Assembly (NCBI RefSeq): GCF_048403405.1
Contig: NZ_CP183129.1
DNA from: Escherichia coli
GTDB taxonomy: Bacteria > Pseudomonadota > Gammaproteobacteria > Enterobacterales > Enterobacteriaceae
Strand: one strand, 5' to 3'
DNA: 64,000 bases
Position 1 is the stretch's first letter; each line of letters opens with the position of its first letter. Below are positions 33,001 through 36,000 of the stretch, piece by piece. The position numbers are program-made.

Positions 33001-36000
33001 CATTCCGTCTGGCACTAATCATCTGCGGTTGCGTCACCGCGGCGGGTGCACTGGCGTACATCTTCCTGGTTCGTCAGCCGATCAACGACCCGCGTAAAGA
33101 TTAATCTCCCTATGCCCGATAACATTTTGCTTATCGGGCATTTTTATGGCGATTAAAACGTTTCCCAGTTCTCCCCGCTATCTGCCACGGCCATTTTACG
33201 CGGCGCAGCTGGCGTCACGGTTTTTACCACAGCCGATGTTTCACGCTGCTGTTGCTGCTGTTGCTGAATCCGGAACACTGCCACAGCTTCGGTCAGGCGA
33301 CTGGCCTGCTCTTCCAGCGCGGCAGCGGCGGCGGCAGATTCTTCCACCAGTGCGGCGTTCTGTTGAGTTACCCGGTCCATCTCAGCAACCGCTAATCCAA
33401 CCTGATCGATACCACGGCTCTGCTCATCAGAAGCAGAAGCAATTTCGCCCATAATGTCCGTCACGCGGGTCACGGCACTGACAATCTCCGCCATTGTTTC
33501 CCCTGCGCTTTCGACCAGCGTAGAGCCAACATCCACTTTCCCCACCGAGTCTTCAATCAGGCTTTTAATTTCACGAGCCGCCTGGGCGCTGCGCTGGGCC
33601 AGATTACGCACTTCTCCCGCGACCACCGCAAAACCGCGCCCTTGCTCACCCGCACGCGCAGCCTCAACCGCCGCGTTCAAAGCCAGAATATTGGTCTGGA
33701 AGGCAATGCCGTCAATTACGCTGATAATATCGGCGATTTTCTGCGAACTGGTGGAGATATCGCGCATAGTCTGCACCACGTTATCTACCACTTTGCCGCC
33801 GCGTTGCGCCGTTTCAGAAGCACTTAACGCCAGATGGCTGGCCTGACGCGCATTCTCGGCGTTCTGTTTCACCGTTGCGGTCAGTTGCTCCATGCTGGCT
33901 GCCGTCTCTTCCAGCGAAGCGGCCTGTTGCTCGGTGCGCGAAGAGAGATCGTTATTGCCGGTGGCGATTTCGCTGGCACCGCTATAAATGGCATTGGCCC
34001 CGTTGCGCACATCACCGACGGTACGCATCAGCTCTCCCTGCATATGGCGCAAACTCTCTGCCAGTTGCCCCATCTCATTAGAGCCATCCACCTCAATCGG
34101 TTTCACCAGATCGCCGCCTGCAATATGACGAATGCTGTCAATCAGGCGATTCATTGGCGCTACCAACGAGGCTTTAATACCGAACCAGACGGCGAAGATG
34201 ACCGCCAGTACGACGATCATCACGCCCACCAGGATCCACATCGCCTGGCTGTAGGAGGCATTATTATCGCTGACGGCGATATCATAGAGCCGATCGTTTT
34301 GCTCCATGTAAGCCACATACTGCTTCTCGAAACCGTCCTGATATCCCTGGGTCGGCTGATCAAAGAACTCGTTGATTTTGCCTGCACCTAACAGTTGGAT
34401 CAGCTCCGCCAGCGCATTGTGATAAATATCGTAATTACGTTTGATCTCTGCCGCTGCGGCGGTGCTCTGACGCGGGTCACGCGGCAACGCTTCGTAATCC
34501 GCCCAGTTTTTTTCCGCCTGTTTCAGCGAAATACTGGCACTCTGCATCAGCTCAGCAACGGTTGAACCGCTACCAATATTATTCTGATCCATCATGTAGC
34601 GGATACCCGCGCGGTTGAGGGTGTTACGCGTCTGCAACAACGCGACCCAGCTGCCATTCAGCGTGGATTGCTGCTGGCGAATGGTTTGTAAAACAGTGAA
34701 ATTTTCTTTGTCATTCTTTAAGGCATTAAAGAACAGACCGCCTGATGTCAGTTGTAAAAGGCCAAAAACGGCCAAAACCAGCAGTAAGCTGGTCACAATT
34801 TTGATACGTTTTAACATGTTTTCTCTTTCCTGTGGACCGATGCAAGATTTTCGGCCTGGAAAGGAAAAACTTTATGAAAAGGTGTAACCCGCCATCCATG
34901 GAAAAACCAGGCGCTGGTTATCAGATATTAAAAAGTTATTCATTATCGCCCGGGATGTCTTCTTGTCGGGAATTACCCAGAGCAATAAATTCCTCTAACA
35001 GATGGGTTAACTGTTGCATTTTCTCGGCAGTAAACTGAGCTTCAATCTGCCGATAGGCCTCTTCAATCTGTGTCTGAGCGCGGTTATACAGCGCCTGCCC
35101 CTCTTTGGTCAGCGAGATATAGAGCTTCCGCTGATCATTGATCGGCTTTAATCGCAACACTAAACCGTCGCGTTCCATCCGCGTAAGGATCCCGGTCAGG
35201 CTTGGGCGCAAAATGCAGGCGCGATACGCCAGATCGTGAAAATCCATTGATGGGCTTTCCGCCAGAATACGCACGATGCGCCACTGTTGCTCAGTCAAAT
35301 TATGCCGTTTAACGATTGGGCGAAAATAACTCATCGCCGCTTCTCGCGCCTGGAGCAACGCAATGGTTAGAGAGTCGTGCATTATCTTTCCCCTGAAAAA
35401 TTCAAAATCATTAATATAGAAACAGTTAATCATCACGTTACCGGGACTGCGCTGCCCCTGCAATTCTTCATTTTATCAAAATTGAGCATGTTTTGTTAAC
35501 TTGCTGATATTTAATATTTTATTATCTTTAAATGTAAATAGTTTGTTAATTAGATCACATTTACATCACTTACTTTTGCCAAACTACGCAATCGGGAATA
35601 AAAGTAATCATTAACATATTAATGATTAAGATGATCGAATCCGAGGAGTGGTAATGAAAGGCACTATCTTCGCCGTAGCGTTGAACCATCGCAGCCAGCT
35701 TGATGCATGGCAGGAAGCGTTCCAGCAATCCCCCTACAAAACCCCGCCTAAAACTGCGGTCTGGTTTATTAAACCGCGCAATACGGTGATTGGTTGCGGT
35801 GAACCGATTCCCTTTCCACAGGGTGAAAAAGTACTGAGCGGTGCGACTGTTGCGCTGATTGTGGGGAAAACGGCGACGAAAGTACGTGAAGAAGATGCGG
35901 CAGAGTACATCGCCGGATATGCGCTGGCTAACGACGTCAGCCTGCCGGAAGAGAGCTTTTACCGCCCGGCAATCAAAGCAAAATGTCGTGATGGATTCTG

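What the first reader, a model, noticed from the sequence alone, without database searches (positions are those of the whole stretch)
35530..35630. Two palindromes upstream of hpaG as candidate HpaR operators
ATGTAAAT-N19-ATTTACAT (35532-35566) and the perfect TAATCATTAA-CATA-TTAATGATTA (35604-35627) lie in the hpaR-hpaG region; the second sits just upstream of the hpaG RBS, where a repressor would block the promoter.
Basis: seen in the sequence. Interest (0 to 1): 0.3.

Follow-up and report, generated by a model that had tools for sequence, protein, structure and literature searches.

The report
Known HpaR operator; other palindrome incidental
Of the two palindromes, the perfect one just upstream of hpaG is the already published binding site of the HpaR repressor. 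The other is a chance, E. coli-only symmetry around a CRP-type activator site, and the real second HpaR site lies 200 bp away next to hpaR.

Summary
Both palindromes exist. The region is the divergent hpaR/hpaG control region of the E. coli 4-hydroxyphenylacetate cluster, and 35525-35653 is base-for-base identical to strain W.

Palindrome 2 (TAATCATTAA-CATA-TTAATGATTA):
- It is unlikely by chance (P about 0.01).
- It is present in all 78 orthologous intergenic regions, 34-54 bp before hpaG.
- It shows a symmetric compensatory change between clades.
- It starts directly after the predicted -10 and covers the predicted transcription start.
- It matches the TTAA-N4-TTAA core footprinted for Yersinia HpaR.
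It is the known operator, which I recall as OPR1 of Galán et al. 2003.

Palindrome 1 (ATGTAAAT-N19-ATTTACAT) is not an operator:
- Its chance probability is about 0.28.
- The arms are complementary only in E. coli.
- It scores -21 bits on the HpaR matrix.
- Its interior is a CRP-like site, TGTTA-N6-TCACA, conserved in all 78 loci.

It sits 200 bp from the first, and that spacing is kept at 196-205 bp in 74 of 78 loci. A conserved IHF-like site lies between the two.

Verdict: ordinary and already known. Interest is low.

The parts
34936..35382 (-). [quoted passage not shown]
   Evidence: RefSeq annotation of an identical chromosome. NCBIfam TIGR02337 HpaR equivalog, 201 bits against a cut-off of 121. 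Closest solved relatives are 5aip/5aiq, which I recall as meningococcal NadR, and A. baumannii HpaR 7el2.
35407..35426 (.). Distal HpaR site (OPR2-like): ATCATTAA-TATA-GAAACAGT. The left half-site is good and the right half-site is degenerate. Its centre is 35416.5, 200 bp from the proximal operator.
   Evidence: Its left part AATCATTAATAT (35406-35417) is an exact inverted copy of 35616-35627 (I1). It is the second-best hit of the OPR1-derived matrix in the whole 64-kb window. In 74 of 78 orthologous loci the best second site lies 196-205 bp from the proximal site.
35497..35509 (-). IHF-like core TATCAGCAAGTTA (consensus WATCAANNNNTTR, 1 mismatch) between the two HpaR sites
   Evidence: ATCA and TTA are the conserved columns in the Enterobacteriaceae alignment. 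The same motif sits 112.5-113.5 bp from the OPR1 centre in 69 of 78 loci, with a freely varying N4. Binding is not tested.
35532..35566 (.).
   Evidence: Chance P about 0.28. Arms are 8/8 complementary only in the window, 6/8 in a second E. coli, and 4/8 or fewer elsewhere. The best HpaR matrix score in this stretch is -21 bits.
35533..35539 (.). Conserved block TGTAAAT of unresolved function (possibly part of the hpaR promoter Pr)
   Evidence: At least 80-90% conserved across 47 Enterobacteriaceae sequences. It reads TGTGAAT in Serratia and is absent in Photorhabdus.
35544..35559 (.). CRP-like site TGTTA-N6-TCACA (22-mer 35541-35562, centre 35551.5)
   Evidence: Matches TGTGA-N6-TCACA at 9 of 10 positions. 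It is present with 2 mismatches or fewer in all 78 loci, 64-66 bp upstream of the OPR1 centre. It would be centred at -61.5 if +1 is 35613 (inference).
35576..35581 (+). Predicted Pg -35 hexamer TTGCCA
   Evidence: Conserved block in the alignment, with a 17-nt spacer to TAAAAG. This is a prediction. The generic promoter scan did not call it.
35599..35604 (+). Predicted Pg -10 hexamer TAAAAG
   Evidence: ATAAAA (35598-35603) is about 80-90% conserved. It is a weak -10, as expected for a CRP-dependent promoter (inference). The start site is predicted at about 35610-35613.
35605..35628 (.). Proximal HpaR operator (the published OPR1): perfect palindrome TAATCATTAA-CATA-TTAATGATTA, centre 35616.5
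   Evidence: sequence; chance; unique in the window; all 78 loci; symmetric covariation; identical to E. coli W. PMC7180172 gives the TTAA-N4-TTAA footprint core.
35643..35648 (+). hpaG ribosome-binding site GAGGAG
   Evidence: Read from the sequence. It is conserved.
35654..36943 (+). hpaG, the first gene of the hpa-meta operon
   Evidence: RefSeq annotation and ORF list.

Best explanation
The 271-bp hpaR-hpaG intergenic region is the known divergent control region of the E. coli 4-hydroxyphenylacetate meta-cleavage operon.

The perfect palindrome at 35605-35628 is the primary operator of the MarR-type repressor HpaR. An HpaR dimer bound there covers the stretch from just after the -10 through the transcription start of the hpaG promoter Pg, and so excludes RNA polymerase. 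The pathway substrates 4-HPA and 3,4-HPA release it.

A weaker, half-degenerate second site at 35407-35426 lies 200 bp upstream, in the hpaR leader. It most likely acts cooperatively with the first site to tighten repression and to autoregulate hpaR. An IHF-induced bend at about 35503 probably helps.

Its interior is the CRP (catabolite activation) site of Pg, and its outer symmetry is a lineage-specific coincidence.

What is shown here: the sequence features, their conservation, spacing and covariation, and identity to strain W. What is inferred: the promoter hexamers and start site, CRP and IHF occupancy, and looping. What is taken from literature: HpaR repression and 4-HPA induction (PMC7180172, PMC2791445), and the Yersinia footprints (PMC7180172). 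What is from my own recollection: the OPR1/OPR2 names and their E. coli W footprints in Galán et al. 2003, which could not be opened here.
For: -: perfect 10+10 inverted repeat with a 4-nt spacer, and a 12-nt exact inverted copy of one arm at 35406-35417.
- chance P about 0.012.
- unique in 64 kb at 3 mismatches or fewer.
- TCATTAA-N4-TTAATGA is present in all 78 orthologous hpaR/hpaG regions, 34-54 bp before the hpaG ATG. These cover Enterobacteriaceae, Hafnia, Serratia and Photorhabdus, where HpaR is 64-99% identical.
- positions +/-9 and +/-6 to +/-3 are invariant and complementary. Position +/-8 switches symmetrically from C.G to T.A (46 against 11 unique sites, only 4 asymmetric).
- the matrix built from the orthologs gives 28.8 bits at 35603-35630. 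The next best hit in the whole window is 35403-35430.
- inter-operator spacing is 196-205 bp in 74 of 78 loci, while intergenic length ranges from 260 to 516 bp.
- the CRP-like site is at a fixed offset in 78 of 78 loci.
- the IHF-like site is at a fixed offset in 69 of 78 loci.
- 35525-35653 is identical to E. coli W. A divergent E. coli changes OPR1 only in the spacer.
- the adjacent gene is an HpaR equivalog.
- Yersinia HpaR footprints two TTAA-N4-TTAA sites, one over the -10 and one about 180 bp upstream, described as 'similar to E. coli W'.
- NadR, the closest relative, uses a promoter-overlapping operator, a distal operator and an IHF site in between.
Against: - No binding or start-site data could be produced or read here. 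The primary paper (PMC275547) is not in the library.
- The -10 (TAAAAG) is weak, and the generic promoter scan did not call Pg. The overlap with +1 therefore rests on the -35/-10 prediction and on CRP geometry.
- The distal site scores only 1.1 bits in E. coli.
- The 196, 200 and 205 bp spacings in different clades are not all in helical phase, which weakens a strict looping model.
- The 78 loci are phylogenetically related, so the counts overstate the number of independent observations.
Confidence: 0.9

Rival explanations
1. Both palindromes are HpaR operators. HpaR would bind ATGTAAAT-N19-ATTTACAT as a second, upstream site.
For: The symmetry is perfect in the window and in strains W and BL21. 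The left arm TGTAAAT is conserved in Enterobacteriaceae.
Against: An 8+8 inverted repeat with a spacer of 30 or less arises in 28% of random sequences of this composition. The right arm is not conserved: complementarity is 6/8 in another E. coli and 4/8 or fewer in 76 other loci. The sequence bears no relation to the HpaR half-site TTAATGA, and the matrix scores -21 bits. A 19-nt spacer does not fit a MarR dimer, whose known sites have half-sites a few bp apart, 4 bp in this case. The genuine second site is found elsewhere.
Confidence: 0.04
2. The second palindrome acts as an RNA hairpin in the hpaG leader, as an attenuator, stabiliser or translational element, rather than as a DNA operator.
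For: The 10-bp stem with a 4-nt loop is the predicted minimum-energy fold.
Against: The stem is all A-U except one G-C pair. Its energy is -6.8 kcal/mol, and the fold of the region is no better than shuffles (z = -0.85, with 43 of 200 shuffles as good). No T run follows. The predicted start site lies inside the left arm, so the full hairpin would not be transcribed (inference). In most species only 7+7 bp are symmetric, and the conserved bases are sequence-specific (the TTAA core is invariant), not merely complementary. No Rfam family matches.
Confidence: 0.03
3. The second palindrome is bound by a different regulator or nucleoid protein that prefers A+T-rich DNA (for example HpaA, H-NS or Fis), and the HpaR site is elsewhere.
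For: The region is 30% G+C and TTAA-rich, which is typical of nucleoid-protein targets.
Against: From general knowledge, HpaA is an AraC/XylS activator of hpaBC, and that family uses direct repeats. It is absent from Yersinia, which keeps the site. The precise dyad symmetry with symmetric covariation fits a specific homodimer. The site co-occurs with hpaR in all 78 loci. Yersinia HpaR directly footprints the same core.
Confidence: 0.03

Closest known systems
OPR1/OPR2 operators of HpaR in the E. coli W hpaR-hpaG region (Galán, Kolb, Sanz, García, Prieto 2003, Nucleic Acids Res 31:6598; cited from memory, not readable here)
   Same: Same locus and same sequence: 35525-35653 is identical to strain W, and so are both HpaR sites. 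As I recall the paper, OPR1 is a perfect palindrome overlapping the Pg start site. OPR2 is a similar but imperfect sequence downstream of the hpaR promoter start, bound cooperatively. This matches 35605-35628 and 35407-35426.
   Different: Nothing substantive. What is added here is the comparative evidence: 78 loci, the fixed spacing of about 200 bp, symmetric covariation, and the conserved IHF-like and CRP-like sites.
HpaR sites 1 and 2 at the Yersinia pseudotuberculosis hpaG1 promoter (PMC7180172)
   Same: Two DNase I-protected sites with a TTAA-N4-TTAA core. One overlaps the -10 (centred at -8) and one is distal (-189). HpaR represses the operon.
   Different: In Yersinia the proximal site is placed slightly further upstream relative to +1, and the cluster is a single operon without hpaA. 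The E. coli proximal site has longer perfect arms (10+10).
NadR (Neisseria meningitidis) operators at the nadA promoter, with IHF (PMC2791445)
   Same: NadR is the closest characterised relative of HpaR (50% identity) and responds to 4-HPA. It has one operator over the promoter (-15 to +7) and one distal operator (-139 to -119). An IHF site between them is needed for efficient repression, and looping has been proposed.
   Different: The target gene is an adhesin, not a catabolic operon. The operator spacing is shorter and phase-variable through a TAAA tract. There is also a third low-affinity operator.
Class I CRP-dependent promoters (consensus TGTGA-N6-TCACA centred near -61.5, as at lac)
   Same: It is conserved in all 78 loci at a fixed distance from the operator, and it would be centred at -61.5 if +1 is 35613.
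   Different: CRP binding and the start site were not tested here. The left half has one mismatch.

Membership tests
HpaR operator (OPR1 type) of the hpa-meta promoter | Lies in the divergent hpaR-hpaG intergenic region, next to a gene encoding an HpaR orthologue | tested here: met
   RefSeq annotation of an identical chromosome. HpaR equivalog TIGR02337 at 201 bits.
HpaR operator (OPR1 type) of the hpa-meta promoter | Dyad-symmetric site with a TTAA-N4-TTAA core, as footprinted for HpaR | tested here: met
   TAATCATTAA-CATA-TTAATGATTA. The core is as described in PMC7180172.
HpaR operator (OPR1 type) of the hpa-meta promoter | Sequence identity with the strain in which the operator was defined (E. 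coli W) | tested here: met
   Alignment with NC_017635.1 shows 35525-35653 and the 35403-35430 site identical.
HpaR operator (OPR1 type) of the hpa-meta promoter | Conserved with its regulator across species, with symmetric changes in the two arms | tested here: met
   Present in 78 of 78 loci. Position +/-8 switches between C.G and T.A symmetrically, and the TTAA core is invariant.
HpaR operator (OPR1 type) of the hpa-meta promoter | Overlaps the -10 region or transcription start of Pg | tested here: inconclusive
   The predicted -35 TTGCCA, 17-nt spacer and -10 TAAAAG place +1 at about 35610-35613, inside the left arm. There are no start-site data, and the generic scan did not call this promoter.
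HpaR operator (OPR1 type) of the hpa-meta promoter | Protected by purified HpaR and released by 4-HPA or 3,4-HPA | not testable with these tools
   This needs EMSA or footprinting. It is reported in Galán et al. 2003 (from memory; the paper is not held).
   Matrix score -21 bits. Arm complementarity is 4/8 or fewer outside E. coli. Chance P is 0.28.
Distal or auxiliary HpaR operator (OPR2 type) | A second HpaR-like site at a conserved distance from the proximal operator, in the hpaR leader | tested here: met
   35407-35426 is the second-best hit in 64 kb. Spacing is 196-205 bp in 74 of 78 loci. Cooperative binding itself is not testable here.
CRP binding site | Match to TGTGA-N6-TCACA, conserved, at a class I distance from the start site | tested here: inconclusive
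   The sequence match (9/10) and conservation (78 of 78 loci) are met. The -61.5 position depends on the predicted +1. CRP binding is not testable here.
IHF binding site | Match to WATCAANNNNTTR with conservation of the specified bases only | tested here: met
   TATCAGCAAGTTA has 1 mismatch. The motif is at the same offset in 69 of 78 loci, with a variable N4. Binding is not testable here.
TyrR box (considered for TGTAAAT) | TGTAAA-N6-TTTACA with the invariant G-N14-C | tested here: not met
   The right half is GTTAAT. Position 17 is A, not C (read from the sequence).
Intrinsic terminator or structured leader RNA | A stable G+C-rich hairpin followed by a T run, or a fold better than shuffles | tested here: not met
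   A-U-rich stem of -6.8 kcal/mol with z = -0.85. No terminator was called. No Rfam match.

The most novel reading that the evidence does not exclude
The evidence does not exclude that HpaR-type repressors across Enterobacterales share one control design: a promoter-overlapping operator, an auxiliary operator held about 200 bp away, and an IHF site at a fixed point between them, together forming an IHF-assisted repression loop. That would make HpaR, together with NadR, a second looping lineage within the MarR family. It would also predict that the conserved TGTAAAT block is part of the looped hpaR promoter. Cooperativity in E. coli W and IHF dependence for NadR are already published, so only the generality and the IHF element at hpa would be new.
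Probability: 0.45. Interest if true: 0.3.

Novelty: already known. Interest (0 to 1): 0.1.

Why it matters
The finding matters little beyond correct annotation. It re-finds a repressor operator characterised about twenty years ago in a sequence identical to the strain that was studied.

Three corrections are useful for annotation or for building HPA-responsive biosensors from this promoter:
- Only the hpaG-proximal palindrome is an HpaR site.
- The second HpaR site is next to hpaR, at 35407-35426, not at 35532-35566.
- The 35532-35566 region should be treated as the CRP (catabolite control) module.

The comparative result gives modest support to a looping model for this branch of the MarR family. 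That result is a fixed operator spacing of about 200 bp with a conserved IHF-like site, while the rest of the intergenic region varies from 260 to 516 bp.

Tried and rejected
- Reading the primary paper failed. Galán et al. 2003 could not be opened by DOI or PMC id. The reviews PMC515250 and PMC99040 are also not held. Full-text searches for HpaR with OPR1/OPR2, for cooperativity, and for CRP/IHF at hpaG found nothing that quotes the E. coli footprints. The OPR1/OPR2 assignment therefore rests on my recollection, the Yersinia paper and the comparative analysis.
- The generic sigma-70 scan did not call Pg. It gave three other candidates, two on the hpaR strand. I could not decide which one is Pr.
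- A TyrR box, a second CRP site and a second IHF site were considered for the conserved TGTAAAT block. All were rejected on sequence.
- An RNA hairpin or terminator reading of palindrome 2 was rejected.
- My first extraction of intergenic regions used a wrong hpaG frame. It was redone correctly.
- L060 was mis-assigned. Its proximal operator lies 179 bp from the inferred hpaG start, which points to an insertion or a wrong start call. It was handled in later calls by taking the best matrix hit.
The Yersinia footprint sequences could not be aligned directly.
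Full report
**Observation**

The window around the finding is the divergent control region of the E. 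coli 4-hydroxyphenylacetate (hpa) cluster. hpaR runs leftward at 34936-35382. hpaG runs rightward from the ATG at 35654. The intergenic region between them is 271 bp with 30% G+C. An identical E. coli chromosome is annotated this way by RefSeq, in the order lgoT, tsr, hpaR, hpaG, hpaE, hpaD. The hpaR product is an HpaR equivalog by NCBIfam (TIGR02337, 201 bits against a cut-off of 121).

Both palindromes exist:
- ATGTAAAT/ATTTACAT lies at 35532-35539 and 35559-35566.

**Chance**

I tested Markov-1 random sequences with the composition of this stretch. A perfect 10-nt inverted repeat with a short spacer occurs in 1.2% of them. A perfect 8-nt inverted repeat with a spacer of up to 30 occurs in 28%. 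The second palindrome is therefore notable and the first is not. Every other perfect inverted repeat of 10 nt or more in the 64-kb window is a G+C-rich hairpin, and two of them are followed by a T run like a terminator.

**Comparative test**

One scan of representative bacterial genomes with the HpaR protein returned 80 loci. In 78 of them hpaG lies divergently upstream of hpaR, so the orthologous intergenic region could be cut out. The species include Escherichia, Citrobacter, Enterobacter, Klebsiella, Raoultella, Kluyvera, Leclercia, Hafnia, Serratia and Photorhabdus. HpaR identity ranges from 64% to 99%, and the intergenic region from 260 to 516 bp.

**Palindrome 2 is the conserved operator**

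- Every one of the 78 regions carries TCATTAA-N4-TTAATGA, 34-54 bp upstream of the hpaG ATG.
- Positions +/-3 to +/-6 (the TTAA core) and +/-9 are invariant and complementary across 61 unique sites.
- Position +/-8 switches symmetrically between C.G (46 unique sites) and T.A (11 unique sites, mainly Photorhabdus). Only 4 sites are asymmetric.
- A divergent E. coli changes the site only in its 4-nt spacer, from CATA to TATG.

This is the pattern expected for a site read by a symmetric dimer.

The site starts immediately after a conserved promoter-like unit: TTGCCA at 35576-35581, a 17-nt spacer, and TAAAAG at 35599-35604. That places the start site at about 35610-35613, inside the left arm. This placement is a prediction. 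The generic scan did not call this weak promoter.

One search showed that AATCATTAATAT at 35406-35417 is an exact inverted copy of 35616-35627. I built a symmetrised matrix from the 78 proximal sites. It scores 28.8 bits at 35603-35630. The next best hit in the entire 64-kb window is 35403-35430 (1.1 bits; core ATCATTAA-TATA-GAAACAGT). Its centre is exactly 200 bp from the first.

In 74 of 78 loci the best second site lies 196-205 bp from the proximal one. This holds although the distance from that site to hpaR varies from 23 to 258 bp. The spacing is 196 bp in Serratia, 197-201 bp in Enterobacteriaceae and Hafnia, and 205 bp in Photorhabdus.

**Palindrome 1 fails every test**

- Its arms are 8/8 complementary only in the window (and in strains W and BL21), 6/8 in another E. 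coli, and 4/8 or fewer in all other loci.
- The best HpaR matrix score in that stretch is -21 bits.
- What is conserved inside it is TGTTA-N6-TCACA at 35544-35559, a 9/10 match to the CRP core.
- That CRP-like site is present with 2 mismatches or fewer in all 78 loci, 64-66 bp upstream of the operator centre. It would be centred at -61.5 if +1 is 35613.
- The right arm ATTTACAT is simply the E. coli-specific flank of that site.
- The left arm TGTAAAT is conserved in Enterobacteriaceae for a reason I could not establish. It may belong to the hpaR promoter.

**An IHF-like site between the two operators**

The minus-strand sequence TATCAGCAAGTTA at 35497-35509 matches WATCAANNNNTTR with one mismatch. 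The same motif, with a freely varying N4, sits 112.5-113.5 bp from the proximal operator in 69 of 78 loci.

**Rivals**

An RNA hairpin reading of palindrome 2 is not supported. The stem is A-U rich at -6.8 kcal/mol, the region folds no better than shuffles (z = -0.85), no T run follows, and no Rfam family matches. Binding by another factor is unlikely, given the strict co-occurrence with hpaR and the direct Yersinia footprints.

**Comparison with what is known**

Window 35525-35653 is base-for-base identical to E. coli W (NC_017635.1), the strain in which HpaR was characterised. Both HpaR sites are identical too.

I could not open the primary paper, Galán et al. 2003, NAR 31:6598. From memory it reports two operators. 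OPR1 is a perfect palindrome overlapping the Pg start. OPR2 is a similar imperfect site downstream of the hpaR promoter start, and binding is cooperative. That matches 35605-35628 and 35407-35426.

Two accessible papers support the same picture:
- In Yersinia pseudotuberculosis, HpaR protects two TTAA-N4-TTAA sites, at -8 and -189 of the hpaG1 promoter. The authors call these 'similar to E. coli W' (PMC7180172).
- The closest relative, meningococcal NadR, is 50% identical and responds to 4-HPA. It uses a promoter-overlapping operator, a distal operator and an IHF site between them that is needed for efficient repression (PMC2791445).

The closest solved structures are 5aip/5aiq, which I recall as NadR, and A. 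baumannii HpaR 7el2.

**Verdict**

Palindrome 2 is the known primary HpaR operator. Palindrome 1 is an incidental symmetry around the CRP-type site. The true second operator is 200 bp upstream, next to hpaR.

This is already known biology, so interest is low. The only mildly new element is comparative: the operator spacing of about 200 bp and an IHF-like site are conserved across Enterobacterales, which fits an IHF-assisted repression loop. Against a strict phasing model, the clade-specific spacings of 196, 200 and 205 bp are not all in helical phase.

Noticed in passing
window 35497-35509 (minus strand): An IHF-like core TATCAGCAAGTTA lies between the two HpaR sites. It is at the same offset from the proximal operator in 69 of 78 orthologous loci, and only the specified consensus bases are conserved. 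This parallels the IHF site between the NadR operators at nadA.
   Followed up: partly
window 35533-35539: The block TGTAAAT is conserved in Enterobacteriaceae and Hafnia, reads TGTGAAT in Serratia, and is absent in Photorhabdus. It sits just upstream of the CRP-like site. It is not an HpaR, TyrR or CRP match. It may belong to the hpaR promoter (TTTACA on the hpaR strand), but its function is unexplained.
   Followed up: partly
window 35407-35426, compared with L002-L081: The centre-to-centre spacing of the two HpaR sites is clade-specific: 196 bp in Serratia, 197-201 bp in Enterobacteriaceae and Hafnia, and 205 bp in Photorhabdus. The distal-site-to-hpaR distance, by contrast, varies from 23 to 258 bp. 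The spacings differ by nearly a helical turn, so they are not all in phase.
   Followed up: partly
window 35470-35549 (minus strand): Two sigma-70-like candidates for the hpaR promoter were called. One is -35 TTAACA at 35549..35544 with -10 GATAAT at 35526..35521. The other is -35 TTAACA at 35499..35494 with an extended -10 TG-TAAAAT at 35475..35470. Either would put the distal HpaR site downstream of the hpaR start, in a roadblock position. I could not decide which one is used.
   Followed up: no
window 2403-2426 and 33112-33143: These are G+C-rich perfect hairpins followed by T runs, like intrinsic terminators. The second lies between the convergent ends of lgoT and tsr. Further perfect inverted repeats of 10 nt or more at about 29326-29360 and 49857-49883 were not examined.
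   Followed up: no
L060 (Photorhabdus luminescens), with L059, L061, L062, L066 and L068: Several Photorhabdus species have an intergenic region about 125 bp longer (about 500 bp against about 385 bp). In L060 the extra DNA appears to lie between the proximal operator and the inferred hpaG start. In the others it lies between the distal site and hpaR. This suggests a small insertion or repeat element, which I did not examine.
   Followed up: no
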